IMG/VR virus record: IMGVR_UViG_2606217102_000007
Reading direction: 5' to 3' (one strand)
DNA length: 7,098 bases
DNA from: a virus
Lineage: Duplodnaviria > Heunggongvirae > Uroviricota > Caudoviricetes
Below, piece after piece: positions 1 through 7,098 of the stretch (within the stretch, counting starts at the first letter, position 1; every line of letters begins with the position of its first letter). Position numbers and translations under genes: made by a program. Under the pieces are notes generated by a model, which was given only the letters and a program-made list of their open reading frames with translations, did no database searches and had not been told where the DNA came from.

Positions 1-329
1 CGGGCTGAAGACTGGCGCAGGGCGGATGGCAGTACCGGGTCATATTGCTCACCCAGCGTTTCCGCCATTTCTTCCTGAAGTGCGCTGATTCGCTCCTGTG
101 CTTCCTGTATCTGCCGTTCGGTTTTAGCGCGAAGTTTTTCTGAGCTTTTACCGAACTGCATGCGCTGCAGTTTCGCAACCAGCGCCTTCAGCCGGTTGAT
201 TTCGGAAGCATAAGCCGCCACCCGCTGTGAGAGCAGGCGGTTGTATTTCGCCATCTGGCGGATGGTGTCCTGTTGCGTCTGCAACAGTGCCCGCAGGCGG
301 GCATTCTCATGAGCAAGTGAGGTGTCCAT
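1..329 (-). CDS. tnpC: IS66-family transposase TnpC (orf3), N-terminal 110 codons only; continues past window start
   Basis: ATG at 329-327 on the minus strand; my translation reads MDTSLAHENARLRALLQTQQDTIRQMAKYNRLLSQRVAAYASEINRLKALVAKLQRMQFGKSSEKL..., a leucine-zipper-like N-terminus as in IS66 TnpC. Absent from the ORF track because there is no stop in the window. Starts 17 nt after the tnpB stop. Confidence 0.85.
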   Translation of the reverse strand, partial: MDTSLAHENARLRALLQTQQDTIRQMAKYNRLLSQRVAAYASEINRLKALVAKLQRMQFGKSSEKLRAKTERQIQEAQERISALQEEMAETLGEQYDPVLPSALRQSSA

Positions 330-348
330 ATCCTCACTTTACAACGGG

Positions 349-696
349 TTATATGCGGATGCCAGCGCGTTCCGTTCGTTTCGGGTGCTTCCAGTCGATG
401 CCTTCGAGAAGCATGGACAACTGAGCCGGAGTAAGGTGAACCTTTCCATCGCGGGTGACCGGCCAGACGAAGCGGCCCCGCTCCAGGCGTTTGGTGAAGA
501 GGCACAGTCCGTCACTGTCAGCCCACAGCACTTTTATCTGGTCACCCCGGCGTCCGCGGAAGATGAACAGATGCCCGGAGAACGGGTCATCCTTCAGGAC
601 GTTCTGAACTTTTGAGGCCAGGCCGTTAAAGCCATTTCGCATATCGGTGATACCGGCAACCAGCCAGATACGCGAACCGGCAGGGAGAGATATCAT
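349..696 (-). CDS. tnpB: IS66-family accessory protein TnpB (orf2), 115 aa
   Basis: ORF-track protein MISLPAGSRIWLVAGITDMRNGFNGLA...GHLFIFRGRRGDQIKVLWADSDGLCLFTKRLE matches the conserved IS66 Orf2 family by memory; its start codon overlaps the tnpA stop (ATGA). Confidence 0.9.
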   Translation of the reverse strand: MISLPAGSRIWLVAGITDMRNGFNGLASKVQNVLKDDPFSGHLFIFRGRRGDQIKVLWADSDGLCLFTKRLERGRFVWPVTRDGKVHLTPAQLSMLLEGIDWKHPKRTERAGIRI

Positions 697-1346
697 CAGT
701 GGCTGCTCCCTTTCATTTCGCGGATAAGTGTCTGTAATAACGCCGGTGTCAGTTCACCTTTCAGCCTGAGAGTTCCGGCCGGCAGAACCAGCTCGCAGCA
801 CAGACTGTCTGGCAGTGTATTTATCTGTTCAGGTATCTGCACTGGTGCCGGGATTTTATTATCCGGCTCCGGAGTTAACGTCACGGGAAGTAGCGATGTT
901 TCATGTTCGCCGGGCGGTTGCAGGCCACCGTTACGCCAGAGATGCCGCCAGTTAAAGAGCAGGTTATCGTTAATTCCATTCTCTCGAGCTATTTGTGCGA
1001 CACAGGCACCGGGTAAAAGAGTTTGCTGAACCAGTCTCCATTTAAACTCCGGTGAAAATCGGTTCCGGCGGGGTTTCTCTGCTTTCACAGGCTGAGTCAC
1101 GGTCGGGGCTGAAGGGTATCGCCCCGGGAAAAGAGCCCGGGCCAGTTGCCCGCAGGAATATTCACCGGAAAGAGGCCAGTCAGTGAATACCTGGTGAAAT
1201 CGCCTCACCAGAGAAAAAATGGCGGTTTTGCTGACACCAGTCTGCGCAGAAATGCGCGGGTACGACAGTGACTCGTCAAATCTCAGCTGTAGCACACGCA
1301 GGATCAATTCTGGATTATCTGCCAGTACCGCTTTTCGTGCATTCAT
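696..1346 (-). CDS. tnpA: IS66-family TnpA (orf1), 216 aa, helix-turn-helix protein
   Basis: First gene inside the IS terminus; contains the RRNRFSPEFKWRLVQQ...CVAQIARENGINDNLLFNWR segment typical of transposase Orf1/OrfA HTH proteins. The true start could be an alternative codon, since there is no internal Met. Confidence 0.75.
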   Translation of the reverse strand: MNARKAVLADNPELILRVLQLRFDESLSYPRISAQTGVSKTAIFSLVRRFHQVFTDWPLSGEYSCGQLARALFPGRYPSAPTVTQPVKAEKPRRNRFSPEFKWRLVQQTLLPGACVAQIARENGINDNLLFNWRHLWRNGGLQPPGEHETSLLPVTLTPEPDNKIPAPVQIPEQINTLPDSLCCELVLPAGTLRLKGELTPALLQTLIREMKGSSH

Positions 1347-1405
1347 CTTAAATGTCCTTTTACTGCGAAAATGGACATTAGTATCGGAAACAGGAAAGGG
1401 AGGCG

Positions 1406-1431
1406 AAAGACGGTTTAAATGATGCGCTTAC
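1406..1431. repeat. IS66-family terminal inverted repeat (outer end at 1431)
   Basis: Sequence ...gacggtttaaatgatgcgcttac; reverse complement begins GTAAGCG. The inner boundary is approximate because the partner repeat is outside the window. Confidence 0.6.
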
Positions 1432-2770
1432 CAGCCTCGGGAGTTAAATCTCCTTTATTTAGAACGTTTTTAAGGCGCGTTTGAGTTGCATGTGTTGCCA
1501 TTTTTGCATAATCAGCTTTTCCCGCTCTCCATGCTGAAGCATCTTTTGGGCTAAGTCCTTTCGCTATAGATTTACTAAGGCTATTGGTTAGCGAGTTGTA
1601 GACCCTGTCGACCATTGTTTGCGACATTGATGGCAGAACTGTACGATCGCCTTTTACGTCAATGCGGAACTGAGTTCTCAGCTTATCAAGTAACTCAAAG
1701 GCATCATCTCCATTTGTTATCTCCTGAATGGCATTCTTATAATCATTAAGCGCAGAAATGGTCTGGGTGTCAGAAACACCTTTAAGTTTCCCAAGTTCGT
1801 TTACTGCTCCGTCGATAGCTCTTATGGCGCCACTTGTATCAACTGGCTTTCCAACCATTCTTCCTGACAGGTTGTTTAGTTTTGACTTGGCTAACGATTT
1901 TTCCCTTGCAACGCCTGACTTTAGACTATCAACGACTACAGATGGATCGTAGTCGCCGTATTTTTCGGTGAAGCGATTAACAAGCTTGGTTCTAGCATCC
2001 TGCTGTGCGGCTCTCATTGGTCCAGTCCCAGCTATGACTCCTTCTGAGTAACCCTGCAGTTGATTGCCAAGTTTTGTTTTTGGAGGAACTACATCCGATG
2101 TCATAACTGGTACATCTGCCGCAGCGGCACGCTTGAGCAATTGCTGATCTGCTGGTGATATTTCGCCACGAACAGCAGTAATTCCACGCCCTATTCCCTT
2201 TGCTGCTGCGGAAAGAACCCCCTGAGCGGCAAGGTTAACTCCGGCATTTATGGCTGCATTTTGCGCGAAATCACCTTTCTGGTTTGCGGCCTCTGCCAGT
2301 GATCCAATAGCCATGCTTCCTGCCGTTCCAACTCCTGGAACTAAATACCCGCCAATTGTTTCTCCAGCTTGCGCGTAGGGGTCTGTCGGTCTGTCTACTG
2401 GACGATAAACATCATCCAATACTTTTGGCCCACCAAGCCCCTGACTGATTGCATTAATCAGACTTGCGCCACCCTGCAATACGTCAAATGGTATGTTTAC
2501 CAGACCGCGACCAGCCTGCTCTGCAATTTGCCCTGCACTTTGACCACCAGTGAGCCAATCGCCAGCTTGTTGCATCAATGATGGTTCTTCTTTCTGCTGC
2601 TGAGGTGGAGGGTATGCTGCATAAAACTGATCTCTTGCTTCAGCCCATTTGTCACCAGCCTTAGGGGCAACAACCTCATCAAAATATTGCGCTTGAGCCT
2701 GTGCTTTCTGTTCTTCAGTTAACGCCTGATACTGTGGAGAGGCGATAACATCTTTCCATGCTTTAGCCAT
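1415..2770 (-). CDS. Phage DNA-ejection (DNA transfer) protein, P22 gp16-like, with 3' end replaced by the IS insertion (native sequence 1432-2770; last codons and stop come from the IS repeat)
   Basis: 451-aa ORF whose final residues GKRII and stop are encoded inside the IS terminal repeat (stop = complement of 1415-1417). Third gene of a gp7/gp20/gp16-like cassette; P22 gp16 is about 609 aa, so roughly 150 C-terminal residues would be missing. Start overlaps the upstream stop as TAATG at 2768-2772. The family call rests on synteny, size and composition only. Confidence 0.55.
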   Translation of the reverse strand: MAKAWKDVIASPQYQALTEEQKAQAQAQYFDEVVAPKAGDKWAEARDQFYAAYPPPQQQKEEPSLMQQAGDWLTGGQSAGQIAEQAGRGLVNIPFDVLQGGASLINAISQGLGGPKVLDDVYRPVDRPTDPYAQAGETIGGYLVPGVGTAGSMAIGSLAEAANQKGDFAQNAAINAGVNLAAQGVLSAAAKGIGRGITAVRGEISPADQQLLKRAAAADVPVMTSDVVPPKTKLGNQLQGYSEGVIAGTGPMRAAQQDARTKLVNRFTEKYGDYDPSVVVDSLKSGVAREKSLAKSKLNNLSGRMVGKPVDTSGAIRAIDGAVNELGKLKGVSDTQTISALNDYKNAIQEITNGDDAFELLDKLRTQFRIDVKGDRTVLPSMSQTMVDRVYNSLTNSLSKSIAKGLSPKDASAWRAGKADYAKMATHATQTRLKNVLNKGDLTPEAGKRII

Positions 2771-4134
2771 TAATCACCCCATAGTGAAGAAAAGTTACTG
2801 CCGGCTGCTGGCTGTGATACCTGTGTAGGTTGAGATTGCTGCCGCTGAGATTTACCAACATTAACGTTATATTGTTGGTTGTAATTGTCGGTATATTGCT
2901 GAATGTCGCGCATTGATTGTTGCAGTGCTTCAGGGCTTGAGAAATCAACCTGTGGCATACCTTGAAAATACATCTTTGCTTCTGCAACGGTGTTGATACC
3001 GGATGCCCCCATGTCTCTGGCTGCTGCAATGCCCTGATTCTGCATCTTTCCTTGGATTCGCTGTGCAGCGTTGTATAGTTTCCTCTGATCACCACCAGAT
3101 GCACGGCTACGAATATCTGCACCAAGAGCAGGAGAACCTGAAGAGCCTGTAATGCCAGTCATGAAGCCAAGATCGTCAATTGATGCACCAGAAATTGCAT
3201 CAAGATCTTTCTTCATTGCGTAATTCTGCGCGCTTGCTGCCGATGTAGCCGGAGCGGCAATAGAGCCAGCAGGAACGCGAACCATATTCCCCTCGTTGTC
3301 GATACCTTCGTAGAACGCATTAGCCCCAGCGCCGTGAAGCTTCCCGCCTACCGTTACAGTTCTGCCATCTGCTAACTGAACTGTACGCTCATTATTCCCA
3401 ACCGACCCTTTCATTGATGCTCTCTGCATCGATAAATCCTGACCGCGCATCGTGATATTCTGACCGCGTGCTGTTAGCGCCTCTCCAGCCTTATTGCTGC
3501 GGATTGTCTCTGCCAGTCTGCCTCGGTCAATCTCACGACCAGCTATCTTGTCCTGAACAGCAAACGCCTTTTCTGGCCCAAGTGCACCGAGAGACATAGT
3601 AGTCAGCATGTGTGATAGCTGTTCTGGATTCTGGATACCTGTCTGAATCATCCAGTCAGCATTCGCACCCACGCGATTTAACCTGTCCTTGTTGTCAGTA
3701 ATGAATTTACTGTAGGCTTCCGGTCCCTGAGAAAGAGCGACGTTAGCCCTCATGGCTAAATCGCCCATATCGTTGCGTTGCTGCTCATTAAGACCGGAAA
3801 ACGCCTGTTGTGCCTGTGCAACAAACGCTGGATTTTCCTGGGCAAACTTAAATAGTCCCGATGGATCACCAGAAGCCCATGCATCAGCGTGAACCTTATT
3901 GAACGCCCTAATAGCTTTCTGTTGCTGTTCCTGATTGTAAATATCAGCAACTCCAGCCAGACCACGTAACGCGGTCAGACCAACGTTATTTGCACCTGAT
4001 CGAGCCAATTCATTGTTTTCGCGGATCAGACCAAGCGTTGCGTTAATGTCGCTTGCCTTTGGCGCATTCTCATTTTGCGTACCGATGCCAGCCAGAAAAC
4101 CACCAGAATTAATACCCTGTTGCCACGTAGCCAT
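2770..4134 (-). CDS. Phage DNA-ejection (DNA transfer) protein, P22 gp20-like, 454 aa
   Basis: Long intact ORF between the gp7-like and gp16-like genes; the size matches P22 gp20 (about 471 aa). The complement of 4139-4146 gives an AAGGGG ribosome-binding site upstream of the ATG. Gly/Ala/Gln-rich with a Q/N-rich C-terminus. Assignment is by gene order and size, not by sequence search. Confidence 0.55.
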
Positions 4135-4143
4135 GATTACCCC

Positions 4144-4545
4144 TTAAAACAACGAGCCAAGCAGACCAAGACCGCCACCAACAGCGGCACCAATACCAGT
4201 ACCAATACCAGGAACAATGCTGCCAAGTTTTGCTCCAGCAATTGCTCCAGAGGCAGCCCCGCCTATTGCAGATTGAAGGCCGGAAGGTCTATTAGCGTTT
4301 GCCGCCGCCAGTGCCGCGCTTTGCTGTGAAATCTGGCTCATGTTGTTGGCATATGTTTGCCCGGCATTTGCCTGCCCCTGAAGCGCGCCAAGACCAATAT
4401 TTGCCAGATTCTGGTAGTTGTTCATTTGTCCAGATAGCCATTGCTGACCAAGCGTTGGTGCGATTGTTGCTAACTGATTACTGGTTGAGGTGGAACCCAA
4501 TCCACCTGTTGCTTCCGCTGCCGCCAGACTCTGATATTCGCTGAC
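4144..4545 (-). pseudogene. 5'-truncated P22 gp7-like ejection protein gene (C-terminal ~130 codons native; the ORF-track N-terminal ~50 codons are read-through into unrelated DNA)
   Basis: The ORF-track protein (4144-4695) opens with an aberrant W/C/H-rich stretch (MAWWMASSSALWRVPLNGISRLGSNPITFPSSTIVLTSRSFHHCHGTGC), then switches to A/G/Q/N-rich sequence ending in a Gly-zipper-like hydrophobic tail. Those first ~150 nt are antisense to a plus-strand exonuclease-like frame. Confidence 0.5.
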
Positions 4546-4732
4546 AGGGCAGCCAGTTCCATGGCAGTGGTGGAATGACCGCGACGTAAGAACAATCGTC
4601 GAGCTTGGAAAGGTAATAGGATTCGACCCTAAGCGAGATATGCCATTCAAAGGAACTCGCCACAACGCGCTTGATGATGCCATCCACCAAGCCAAATACG
4701 TTTCAGCAATCTGGAAAAAATTAGCTAAATAA
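4535..4732 (+). pseudogene. 3' fragment of a DEDDh-family 3'-5' exonuclease gene (final ~65 codons including the Exo III-like motif)
   Basis: Plus frame open from 4535 (in-frame TGA at 4532-4534) to TAA at 4730-4732: ...WNDRDVRTIVELGKVIGFDPKRDMPFKGTRHNALDDAIHQAKYVSAIWKKLAK. H-N-A-L-D-D-A resembles the Exo III motif (H-x-A-x-x-D-A) of DnaQ-like exonucleases. No N-terminal Exo I/II region is present, and the next gene's RBS and ATG follow 16 nt later. Confidence 0.45.
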
Positions 4733-4737
4733 TCAAC

Positions 4738-4742
4738 AGGAG
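4738..4742 (+). promoter_or_regulatory. Ribosome-binding site (AGGAG) for the 4749 CDS
   Basis: caacAGGAGaaaaacATG, 6-nt spacer to the ATG at 4749. Confidence 0.6.
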
Positions 4743-4748
4743 AAAAAC

Positions 4749-5042
4749 ATGCCAGCGCCTTTGTATGGTGCGGATGACCCGCGCCGCTGTTCCGGCAAAT
4801 CAGTATCGGAGGTGCTGGATAAATTCAGAAAAAACTACGACCTGATAATGTCGCTACCGCAGGAAACGAAAAAGGAAAAGGAATTTCGCCACTGTATATG
4901 GCTTGCAGAGAAAGAAGAACGCGAGCGAATTTACCAGACATCAATCCGACCATTCCGTAAAGCCACATATACCCACTTCCCTGAAATTGACCCGCGCCTG
5001 CGTAATTACCGCTCACGCTATGGCGCTATCAGTAATGACTGA
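4749..5042 (+). CDS. Hypothetical prophage early-region protein, 97 aa, highly charged
   Basis: ATG preceded by an AGGAG RBS; the stop at 5040-5042 lies inside the next gene's RBS (tGAGGAa), indicating operon organisation. No family recognised. Confidence 0.6.
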
Positions 5043-5052
5043 GGAATTTACC

Positions 5053-5217
5053 ATGAGAGGACTTGCATACAATCCCGGCATTCTTCCGGCAGAAATGATT
5101 ATTCGCCAACGCGTAAAGCCAATGCCATCGAGAGAGGAATTGCTTAAGAGAAATTCTTTTCCATCAGTGAATCAAAACAAATATCTGAATGCAATGTGGC
5201 GGAGTTGGAAGAAATGA
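5053..5217 (+). CDS. Hypothetical small basic protein, 54 aa ([54 protein letters not shown])
   Basis: ATG at 5053 with a GAGGAA RBS 6 nt upstream. The ORF track extends the same frame back to 4903, but that would overlap the 97-aa gene; the internal start with an RBS is preferred. Its stop overlaps the next start as ATGA. Confidence 0.4.
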
Positions 5218-5645
5218 AACAAATGTCACTAATTGAGATGGATGGATTTCTGAAAGGTAAATGCATCCCACGAGATTTAAAGGTTAACGAAACAAACGCT
5301 GAATATCTGGTGCGTAAATTTGCTGAAGCGGAGGCCAAGTGCGCGGCGCTGGCAGCGGAGAATGCGGGGATGAAGTCTGGCGCTATGGACGAAATCAAGG
5401 TTATCAACCGTGGAGGGCAGGCATATTGTGTAAAAGATGGAGTGCAAGTTAATCCCATGTATGCAAGAGGGTGGAATGACTATCGCGCAAAGTCTATGCA
5501 ATCAGACACCCCAGCCACCGATGCTTTTCTGGCTGAAGTACGAGCGCAAGGCGTGGAGATGTTTGCGGAGTGTGCATACACACTTGAACATCATGATCAC
5601 GCAGTAGCTTTTGCCGCCGAGCTGCGCAAAGGAGGCAACCAGTGA
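5214..5645 (+). CDS. Hypothetical prophage protein, 143 aa from ATG 5214 (ORF track gives a GTG start at 5196); contains four Cys and an EHHDH cluster
   Basis: ATGA overlap with the upstream stop; GGAG 9 nt upstream of ATG 5214. Its stop (5643-5645) overlaps the next gene's GTG start as GTGA. No family confidently recognised. Confidence 0.6.
5632..5637 (+). promoter_or_regulatory. Ribosome-binding site (AGGAGG) for the 5642 CDS
   Basis: aaAGGAGGcaaccaGTG; strong Shine-Dalgarno sequence 4 nt upstream of the GTG start. Confidence 0.6.
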
Positions 5646-6394
5646 GCAAGATTGACTATCAGGCACTGCGTGAGGCGGCAGAAAAAGCAACGTGTGGCGA
5701 GTGGTCGCTCGAATATGGAGAGGGCCGATTTGATGGTGATGATGCACTAATTCATCGCGAGGCTGCTGGATATATTCCCATTTGCAGAATTGAAGGAGCG
5801 CATCCTGAAAGCGGTTTCGATGAAGATTTCCAAATGGAACAGCAGGCCAATGCTGAATTCATCGCCGCAGCCAATCCGGCTACCGTCTTGGCGCTGCTGG
5901 ATGAGCTGGAAAGAAACCAGCAATACATAAAACGCCTCGACCAGGAGAACGAGGATATTGCGCTAACGGTAGGGAAGCTGCGCGTTGAGCTGGAAGGCAA
6001 AGACAGCAAAATAGCCAATCTTACCGCCGAACGCGATGCTCTTCGTGAAGGTGAGATGGGCGACGCTAGGCATAGCAACACACGGGCCGCAGCTGATATC
6101 TACTTCCAACTGGTCGAGGAGTGCGAAATTCCTGCTGGCGGATCTCTGGTCGAGTACGTTGACGATATGCGCGAGAAGCTGGAAGCCGCAGAGAAGCGCA
6201 TTGCAGAGTTAGAAAGTGGTTCTCAGGCACAAAAGTTAGTTGAAGCAATCATTGTTGCGATAGAAAACGAACAGGAAAGGCTTTTTGATGAAGATTACCT
6301 AATGGATTCGAAAGAATGCATTGACGTAATTCGTGAAGAAGTAAAGCGATGGAATGATTCCCGTGCCGCTGGCATTCGCATCAAAGGAGAGTGA
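5642..6394 (+). CDS. Ead/Ea22-like prophage early protein, 250 aa, acidic with a central coiled coil
   Basis: GTG start with a strong AGGAGG RBS. The N-terminus [21 protein letters not shown] and the AANPATVLALLDELERNQQYIKRLDQENEDIALTVGKLRVELEGKDSKIANLTAERDALREGEM heptad-like region resemble Ead/Ea22-family proteins of lambdoid prophages, as recalled from memory and not searched. Confidence 0.5.
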   Translation: MSKIDYQALREAAEKATCGEWSLEYGEGRFDGDDALIHREAAGYIPICRIEGAHPESGFDEDFQMEQQANAEFIAAANPATVLALLDELERNQQYIKRLDQENEDIALTVGKLRVELEGKDSKIANLTAERDALREGEMGDARHSNTRAAADIYFQLVEECEIPAGGSLVEYVDDMREKLEAAEKRIAELESGSQAQKLVEAIIVAIENEQERLFDEDYLMDSKECIDVIREEVKRWNDSRAAGIRIKGE

Positions 6395-6395
6395 G

Positions 6396-7098
6396 ATGAT
6401 TCACTATCACGGTGGGCCTATTACTCCGGATACGTGCGCCATGAGAGCATGGAAAGGGCGACATGCGTTTATCAGTTTTGCGCATTCAGGCCAGATCAAT
6501 CTCGCGGCTGAATACTGTCAGTCGTTCGCGCTGGACAACGGTGCATTCACCGCCTGGAAAGCAGCTGGCAAAAACAAAATCGACTGGAGCGATTACTACG
6601 AGTTTGTTGCTCGCTGGAAGAATCACCCAGGATTCGATTTTGCCATTATCCCGGATGTTATTGATGGCGGAGAGGAGAAAAATGATGCGCTTCTGAATGA
6701 GTGGCCTCACGGAAAACTAGCTGGCGTTCCAGTGTGGCACATGAATGAAAGTGACGAGCGATTTATTCATTTGTGCAATGAGTTTCCGCGAGTGGCTATC
6801 GGTAGTTGTGGCGACTATGACGTAAAGCGCCCAACTCTTGCGGTAGCCAGAATGAAAGACCTGATTCGTCACATTGTTGATGAGCATGGTCAGCCGGTTA
6901 CGAAACTACATGGATTGCGCATGTTAAATCCGCAGATATTCACAAAATTACCCTTAGCCAGCGCAGATAGTACGAACGTCGCTCGAAACATCGGTATTGA
7001 TAAAGCCTGGTCTGGGGCTTATGCACCTGCAAGTAAAGAGACACGCGCAGCATTAATGGTAGAACGGATTGAGGCACACAATAGCCCTGGTTCTCTTG
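6396..7098 (+). CDS. TGT-superfamily protein, candidate DpdA-like 7-deazaguanine DNA transglycosylase (first 234 codons; continues past window end)
   Basis: ATG at 6396 with AGGAG 6 nt upstream, open to the window end, so absent from the ORF track. Motif order and spacing parallel bacterial Tgt: LDNGAF (D47, 6534-6536) vs TDSGGF; AIIPDVIDGG vs IVMIFDEC; RVAIGSCGD vs YAVGGLAVGE; KLHGLRMLNP vs YLMGVGKP; ADSTNVARNIG (D191, 6966-6968) vs FDCVMPTRNARNG, the nucleophile-Asp motif. No Zn-binding CxCxxC is seen in the portion present. Confidence 0.55.
   Translation, partial: MIHYHGGPITPDTCAMRAWKGRHAFISFAHSGQINLAAEYCQSFALDNGAFTAWKAAGKNKIDWSDYYEFVARWKNHPGFDFAIIPDVIDGGEEKNDALLNEWPHGKLAGVPVWHMNESDERFIHLCNEFPRVAIGSCGDYDVKRPTLAVARMKDLIRHIVDEHGQPVTKLHGLRMLNPQIFTKLPLASADSTNVARNIGIDKAWSGAYAPASKETRAALMVERIEAHNSPGSL

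What the first reader, a model, noticed from the sequence alone, without database searches (positions are those of the whole stretch)
1400..1440. IS66-family element inserted into the 3' end of the gp16-like ejection protein gene
The IS terminal repeat (outer end at 1431) lies inside the 451-aa minus-strand ORF. The last residues (KRII) and the stop codon of that ORF are encoded by IS sequence, so the native C-terminus has been replaced; P22 gp16 is about 609 aa, implying roughly 150 residues lost. This marks the prophage as defective for DNA ejection and gives an exact insertion junction (1431/1432, flanking sequence CAGCCTCG).
Basis: partly seen in the sequence, partly recalled or inferred. 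Interest (0 to 1): 0.45.

Follow-up and report, generated by a model that had tools for sequence, protein, structure and literature searches.

The report
IS679 insertion splitting prophage gp16 gene
A known mobile element, IS679, has jumped into the gene for a phage DNA-injection protein inside an E. coli prophage that was already badly deleted, so this is an ordinary piece of genome decay.

Summary
Window 1-1431 is 100% identical to IS679 (IS66 family), and its outer end is at 1431. Homology to the uninterrupted gene starts at 1432. The intact homologue is 621 aa and is identical to the phage JEP4 protein. The window ORF keeps native residues 1-446, then reads G-K-R-I-I-stop across and into the IS terminal repeat.

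I recovered the other junction from a second contig of the same assembly, JNQO01000066.1. It reads IS679 end, then CGAGGCTG (the reverse complement of CAGCCTCG), then the missing 175 codons, which are 100% identical to the intact C-terminus. The two contigs overlap by 213 bases and rebuild a 2704-bp IS679. Removing the IS and one repeat copy restores the intact sequence exactly. This is a simple transposition with an 8-bp target-site duplication.

- 175 residues, not about 150, are cut off. Their coding sequence is displaced 2.7 kb, not lost.
- The prophage was already a remnant. An older deletion joins gp7 codon ~102 to an early-region exonuclease fragment and removes every gene that lies between the early left operon and gene 7 in intact phage JEP4. 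That deletion also occurs in strains without the IS.

The finding is ordinary and of low interest.

The parts
1..1431 (-). One arm of IS679 (IS66 family), 1431 of 2704 bp. The contig ends inside the element. The rest is on contig JNQO01000066.1 (L012 1-1486), with a 213-bp exact overlap.
   Evidence: 100% identity over 1-1431 to annotated IS679 copies. The composite of the two contigs is 2704 bp with 3 mismatches to the IS679 copy in L002.
1..329 (-). 5' part of tnpC (DDE transposase), cut by the contig end.
   Evidence: Gene call with PF13007 LZ_Tnp_IS66. The remainder on L012 scores 476 bits against NF033517 transpos_IS66.
349..696 (-). tnpB, IS66-family accessory protein, 115 aa.
   Evidence: PF05717 E=2.8e-40. 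NF033819 at 128.9 bits against a cut-off of 50.
696..1346 (-). tnpA, IS66-like accessory protein, 216 aa.
   Evidence: NF038385 at 283.6 bits against a cut-off of 150. PF01527 HTH_Tnp_1.
1407..1431 (-). Terminal inverted repeat of IS679 on the tnpA side. Read from the outside it is GTAAGCGCATCATTTAAACCGTCTT. It supplies codons K-R-I-I and the TAA stop of the fusion ORF.
   Evidence: Comparison of the two ends of the rebuilt element: the first 7 bases are identical and 17 of the first 25 match. The same end is seen in L002.
1432..1439 (.). One copy of the 8-bp target-site duplication, CAGCCTCG. The second copy is at L012 1487-1494, written there as CGAGGCTG.
   Evidence: The uninterrupted target in L001 carries a single copy.
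1415..2770 (-). Truncated gp16-type ejection protein gene fused to IS sequence. It has 446 native codons (1433-2770), then G-K-R-I-I and a stop.
   Evidence: DNA is 99.9% identical to the intact gene of EC0026B. The intact 621-aa homologue is 53.6% identical to P22 gene 16 over residues 64-621.
2770..4134 (-). gp20-type ejection protein gene, 454 aa, intact.
   Evidence: PF16928 Inj_translocase, E=3.8e-118.
4144..4534 (-). 3' remnant of the gp7-type ejection protein gene. The first ~100 codons are missing.
   Evidence: It matches only positions 101-230 of the 230-position PF25688 P22_gp7 profile. Homology to JEP4 ends at window 4536, which corresponds to JEP4 10234 inside the gp7 gene at 9931-10626. 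RefSeq marks the same gene in EC0026B as incomplete, missing its N-terminus.
4535..4732 (+). 3' fragment of an early-region 3'-5' exonuclease gene, joined directly to the gp7 remnant. This is the old prophage deletion junction, at about 4534/4535.
   Evidence: RefSeq annotation of the identical region in EC0026B. In most genomes only the exonuclease half of a probe across the junction matches, and only 8 records (4 strains) span it.

Best explanation
A copy of IS679 transposed into codon 447 of the 621-codon gene for the P22-gp16-type DNA ejection protein, inside a P22-like (Lederbergvirus) prophage remnant of E. coli 2-222-05_S4_C2. IS679 is a 2704-bp IS66-family insertion sequence with tnpA, tnpB and tnpC. 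The insertion duplicated 8 bp of target, CAGCCTCG on the window + strand.

The IS lies in the same orientation as the gene. The 5' part of the gene now runs 17 bases into the terminal inverted repeat, which adds G-K-R-I-I and a TAA stop. The 3' part (175 codons) sits 2.7 kb further on, beyond the IS, without its own start.

Shown here: the identity of the IS, both junctions, the duplication, the exact restoration of the empty site, and the older deletion.

Inferred: the split gene product is non-functional, because the cut-off C-terminal 175 residues are conserved as far as P22. Also inferred: the event had no effect on phage production, because the prophage could already make no particles.
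For: - IS identity and end.
- Break of homology at 1431/1432 against the intact gene.
- Intact homologues: 621 aa in EC0026B and phage JEP4, 609 aa in P22. They align to the C-terminus with conserved blocks such as KGKD..RAAYISKIA, ANVVT.TG and LLRLANTK.GTPAYERAL.
- Reciprocal junction in the same assembly: L012 (JNQO01000066.1) reads ...GGCGAGCCGCTTAC|CGAGGCTG|TAAATACCATTGTG.... The sister isolate's assembly, JOSP01000053.1, reads the same.
- The 213-bp exact overlap gives a 2704-bp element. The left flank, minus one repeat copy, plus the right flank is found exactly in L001.
- The right junction is present in two NCBI assemblies and one Logan assembly.
- An 8-bp duplication is the reported footprint of IS66 (PMC6778807, citing Machida 1984 and Han 2001).
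- Older deletion.
Against: - The two halves lie on separate contigs of a short-read draft, both broken inside the IS. Their physical adjacency in the chromosome is inferred from the 213-bp overlap, the matching duplication and the perfect restoration of the target. It was not read on one molecule.
- The two NCBI assemblies are colonies C2 and C3 of one sample, so they are not independent lineages.
- No complete E. coli genome in the collection carries this insertion.
- Loss of function of the truncated protein is inferred, not tested.
Confidence: 0.96

Rival explanations
1. IS-mediated deletion or rearrangement. The IS abuts gp16 on one side only, and the 3' part of the gene was lost or moved by recombination between IS copies.
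For: The window ends inside the IS, so the window alone cannot exclude this. Another IS679 copy (L002) has non-matching 8-bp flanks, AGATTAAC and GATTATTC, which shows such events do happen to this element.
Against: The missing 3' part sits directly against the other IS679 end, with the matching 8-bp repeat, in the same assembly. Excising the IS in silico restores the intact sequence exactly.
Confidence: 0.03
2. Assembly artefact. The contig is a chimeric join of a repeat (IS679) to prophage sequence.
For: The source is a short-read draft, and both contigs break inside a repeated element.
Against: The same junction appears in three separately made assemblies: JNQO01, JOSP01 and Logan SRR1186684. 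The join falls exactly at the true IS terminus. The reciprocal junction carries an 8-bp duplication, which a mis-join would not create.
Confidence: 0.01
3. A naturally short gp16 variant whose end happens to resemble an IS terminus.
For: None beyond the existence of an open reading frame with a stop at 1415-1417.
Against: All full-length homologues run to about 605-621 aa. Sequence downstream of 1431 is 100% IS679 for 1431 bases. The intact allele is 99.9% identical up to the junction and then continues.
Confidence: 0

Closest known systems
IS679 (IS66 family; Han et al. 2001, J Bacteriol 183:4296, cited from memory and via the reference list of PMC6778807)
   Same: 100% identity over the 1431 bases in the window. 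The rebuilt element is 2704 bp. It has tnpA, tnpB and tnpC in series, termini beginning GTAAGCG, and an 8-bp target duplication.
   Different: Nothing of substance. There are 3 base differences from one reference copy (L002), within bases 421-481 from the tnpC-side end.
P22 gp16 DNA ejection (pilot) protein. With gp7 and gp20 it forms the trans-envelope conduit for DNA entry (PMC8402733, PMC8954989).
   Same: The gene order gp7-gp20-gp16 is kept. The intact allele is 53.6% identical to P22 gene 16 over residues 64-621, and 100% identical to the protein of Escherichia phage JEP4.
   Different: Here the gene is split at codon 447 of 621. The N-terminal ~60 residues differ from P22, which is a mosaic N-terminus.
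Cryptic P22-like prophage remnant of E. coli EC0026B, E100341, AST19 and AST205
   Same: Window 1432-7098 is 99.9% identical to EC0026B (2 mismatches), including the gp7'/exonuclease' deletion junction.
   Different: Those genomes have an uninterrupted gp16 gene. The window's strain has IS679 in it.

Membership tests
IS66 family (IS679) | Three genes in series: tnpA, tnpB and tnpC (DDE transposase) | tested here: met
   All three score above the curated cut-offs: NF038385 at 283.6 bits, NF033819 at 128.9 and NF033517 at 476.4. The order tnpA-tnpB-tnpC is seen on the window and L012.
IS66 family (IS679) | Imperfect terminal inverted repeats beginning 5'-GTAAGCG | tested here: met
   Both ends of the rebuilt element start GTAAGCG, and 17 of the first 25 bases match.
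IS66 family (IS679) | 8-bp target-site duplication | tested here: met
   CAGCCTCG is at window 1432-1439, and its reverse complement is at L012 1487-1494. The empty site in L001 has a single copy. The 8-bp footprint is reported for IS66 (PMC6778807).
IS66 family (IS679) | Near-identity to the named element and its length of about 2.7 kb | tested here: met
   100% over 1431 bases to RefSeq copies annotated as IS679. The composite is 2704 bp. The ISfinder reference sequence itself was not available.
P22 gp16-type ejection protein | Sequence homology to P22 gene 16 product | tested here: met
   tblastn of the intact allele against P22 NC_002371 gene 16 gave E=3e-178 and 53.6% identity over residues 64-621. 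A precomputed PF26808 hit is listed on the 451-aa product. The local Pfam and NCBIfam scans returned no family for it.
P22 gp16-type ejection protein | Position directly after the gp7 and gp20 genes in the late operon | tested here: met
   PF25688 (gp7) and PF16928 (gp20) lie immediately upstream on the same strand. The order is the same in P22 and JEP4.
P22 gp16-type ejection protein | Full-length protein of about 600-620 aa with the conserved C-terminal region | tested here: not met
   Only residues 1-446 remain in the ORF. The conserved C-terminal 175 residues are encoded beyond the IS. The window holds a disrupted member, not a functional one.
P22 gp16-type ejection protein | Required for DNA delivery into the host cell | not testable with these tools
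   This needs phage genetics. In any case this prophage cannot form particles.

The most novel reading that the evidence does not exclude
The retained block gp7'-gp20-gp16(1-446)-GKRII might still be expressed from the remnant. The truncated ejection proteins could then interfere with incoming P22-like phages, as a decoy or exclusion function. That would explain why this block survives in several strains. Nothing here supports expression or selection. The IS insertion looks recent and is confined to isolates from one sample.
Probability: 0.02. Interest if true: 0.4.

Novelty: already known. Interest (0 to 1): 0.07.

Why it matters
It matters little. It is a clean, fully resolved example of IS66-family transposition: both junctions, the 8-bp duplication and the empty site are all in hand. 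It could serve as a strain marker for the E. coli 2-222-05_S4 isolates, or as an annotation fix, since three gene calls (451, 149 and 160 aa) are pieces of one pseudogene. It says nothing new about IS66 mechanism or about phage DNA ejection. It does not change the status of the prophage, which was already unable to make virions.

Tried and rejected
- Exact-pattern scans for the right junction in genome contigs found nothing. Scans for the predicted left junction in metagenome contigs and genome contigs also found nothing. These collections do not hold this draft genome.
- A protein search with the C-terminal 175 aa and look-ups of P0003, P0004 and P0029 led only to unrelated truncated or frameshifted copies in other samples.
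- The search with the neighbouring HTH protein turned out not to be needed.
- What worked was an exact look-up of predicted fragment proteins with alternative start codons. It gave P0074 and P0075, and through them the partner contigs.
- Predicted contig-edge chimeric peptides were not in the collection.
- The Han et al. 2001 IS679 paper is not held in the library.
- The local Pfam and NCBIfam copies have no model that hits gp16.
- Rfam found nothing in the window.
- Megablast's apparent extension of homology to 1428 was examined and rejected as a gapped chance match.

Full report
**What is in the window**

The window is the whole of contig JNQO01000082.1 of assembly GCA_000704165.1. Its proteins are named in NCBI as from Escherichia coli 2-222-05_S4_C2. 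On the minus strand it carries, from high to low coordinates:
- a C-terminal remnant of a P22-gp7-type gene (4144-4534);
- an intact gp20-type gene (2770-4134);
- a 451-aa ORF (1415-2770);
- tnpA (696-1346), tnpB (349-696) and the start of tnpC (1-329) of an IS66-family element.

On the plus strand, from about 4535 onwards, are early-left-operon genes of a P22-like phage. These are a 3' fragment of an exonuclease gene, abc2 (anti-RecBCD), DUF2737 and Ead/Ea22.

**Checking the observation**

The + strand at 1421-1440 is GATGCGCTTAC|CAGCCTCGG. The minus strand therefore reads ...CCC GAG GCT GGT AAG CGC ATC ATT TAA, that is P-E-A-G-K-R-I-I-stop.

Window 1-1431 is 100% identical over its full length to elements that RefSeq annotates as IS679 in many E. 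coli chromosomes and plasmids. In one such copy in an unrelated context (L002), the element spans 2704 bp. It ends ...GATGCGCTTAC followed by different DNA, so the terminus is at the base corresponding to window 1431.

Aligned against the uninterrupted gene of E. coli EC0026B (L001), the window matches from 1432 rightwards. To the left of 1432 the two sequences are unrelated. Megablast reported homology from 1428, but only by opening a 1-base gap over TTAC/TTTAC.

**What the interrupted gene is**

The uninterrupted allele in EC0026B encodes 621 aa. It is 100% identical to the "DNA transfer protein" of the isolated Lederbergvirus Escherichia phage JEP4. It is 53.6% identical to P22 gene 16 over residues 64-621. 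P22 gene 16 is 609 codons and follows genes 7 and 20, the same order as here.

In a four-way alignment the window ORF follows the intact protein through residue 446 (...KGDLTPEA) and then diverges: GKRII against VNTIVYG... The 175 residues beyond that point contain blocks conserved between the E. coli and P22 proteins. No full-length homologue ends near residue 446.

gp7, gp16 and gp20 are the proteins P22 injects to build the conduit for DNA entry (PMC8402733, PMC8954989).

**The other end of the insertion**

Pattern scans of the public contig collections found nothing.

I then predicted what a gene caller would make of the orphaned 3' part, using the in-frame GTG, TTG and ATG starts at codons 451, 462 and 473. 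All three exact sequences exist in the protein collection:
- The 149-aa version is KDX84078.1, which has the same accession prefix as the window's KDX83389.1.
- The 160-aa version lies on a 14,494-bp contig.

Looking these up returned contig JNQO01000066.1 of the same assembly (L012) and JOSP01000053.1 of the sister isolate C3 (L016). Both read ...TCAATACGGTTCTGGCGAGCCGCTTAC|CGAGGCTG|TAAATACCATTGTGTATGG.... That is:
- the tnpC-side terminus of IS679 (GTAAGCGGCTCGCC... on the other strand);
- the reverse complement of CAGCCTCG;
- the gp16 sequence from codon 447 onwards.

The encoded remainder is 100% identical to the intact C-terminus.

The IS arm on L012 (1486 bp) and the arm in the window (1431 bp) overlap by exactly 213 bases. 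Together they give a 2704-bp element with 3 mismatches to the L002 copy. Joining the two flanks with a single copy of the 8-bp repeat gives a string that occurs exactly in L001.

This is the signature of a simple transposition with an 8-bp target duplication, the size reported for IS66 (PMC6778807). The base before the repeat in the target is also C, and so is the last base of the IS. A 9-bp repeat could therefore be drawn, but the terminal C belongs to the IS in other contexts.

**Context: the prophage was already a wreck**

The gp7-type ORF matches only positions 101-230 of the 230-position P22_gp7 profile. Homology to JEP4's late region stops at window 4536, inside JEP4's gp7 gene. It resumes at 4749 in abc2, on the other side of the JEP4 map.

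In intact JEP4, the genes lying between these two points are the rest of the early left operon, immunity, replication, nin, lysis, terminase, portal, scaffold, coat and head-completion genes, plus the first ~100 codons of gp7. In the window, nothing lies between the two points except a 198-bp 3' fragment of a different exonuclease gene.

The same junction, at 100% identity, is present in EC0026B, E100341, AST19 and AST205, which have an uninterrupted gp16 gene. Window 1432-7098 differs from EC0026B by two bases. The deletion therefore predates the IS insertion, and the insertion is a later, probably recent, hit in a cryptic prophage.

L012 shows the rest of the remnant beyond the IS: an immI-like region, a tailspike gene and then host genes.

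**Mechanism and consequence**

Shown:
- IS679 inserted in the same orientation as the late operon at codon 447 of gp16.
- It duplicated 8 bp.
- It created a fusion ORF ending 17 bases inside the terminal repeat.
- It left a promoterless 3' fragment that annotators call as separate 128- to 171-aa proteins.

Inferred:
- The truncated protein is non-functional, because a conserved quarter of it is gone.
- There is no phenotypic cost, because the remnant lacks every gene needed to build a particle.

**Rivals**

- IS-mediated deletion of the 3' part is contradicted by the reciprocal junction.
- An assembly artefact is unlikely. The junction recurs in three separately made assemblies, it sits exactly at the IS terminus, and it has a matching duplication.
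- A naturally short variant is excluded.
- The residual uncertainty is that the two arms lie on separate short-read contigs, so their contiguity is inferred.

**Verdict**

The number of residues cut off is 175, and they are displaced rather than lost. The insertion is not what makes the prophage defective. The finding is an ordinary IS insertion in a decaying prophage, involving a known element and a known target family, and is of low interest.

Noticed in passing
window 4534/4535: Old prophage deletion junction. The gp7-type gene, missing its first ~100 codons, is joined head-on to a 198-bp 3' fragment of a 3'-5' exonuclease gene, followed by abc2. The identical junction occurs in 8 complete records from 4 strains (EC0026B, E100341, AST19, AST205). 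About 590 other genomes match only one half of the probe.
   Followed up: partly
window 4144-4695 (-): The 183-aa ORF listed mechanically here is a chimera. Only residues 53-183 are gp7-like. The upstream 52 codons, starting from a TTG, read through the antisense strand of the exonuclease fragment. Gene callers start it at 4500 (118 aa).
   Followed up: yes
proteins P0002, P0028, P0039, P0045: Other E. coli assemblies hold different fusions onto the same gp16 C-terminus, including a terminase-gp16 fusion, a gp20-gp16 fusion and others. This family of P22-like prophages seems to have decayed by many independent deletions ending inside gene 16.
   Followed up: no
L002 1220-1227 and 3932-3939: This 100%-matching IS679 copy in E. 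coli FDAARGOS_1059 has non-matching 8-bp flanks, AGATTAAC and GATTATTC. That suggests recombination between IS copies or an adjacent deletion at that locus.
   Followed up: no
window 1 and L012 1 (contig ends): Both contigs break inside tnpC with a 213-bp overlap. The rebuilt copy differs from L002 at 3 bases, at positions 421-481 from the tnpC-side end. The breaks suggest the genome holds several IS679 or IS66-type copies that the assembler could not resolve.
   Followed up: partly
L012 8223-12021: Beyond the tailspike gene the remnant ends. Host genes follow: a PBP5/Peptidase_S11 family gene, a GyrI-like gene and a FUSC-family gene. This gives the chromosomal side of the prophage's right end. 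The attachment site was not mapped.
   Followed up: no
window 6396-7098 (+): An ORF runs off the right end of the contig (234 aa seen). It corresponds to a 251-aa hypothetical protein in EC0026B (L001 10968-11723). No function is assigned.
   Followed up: no
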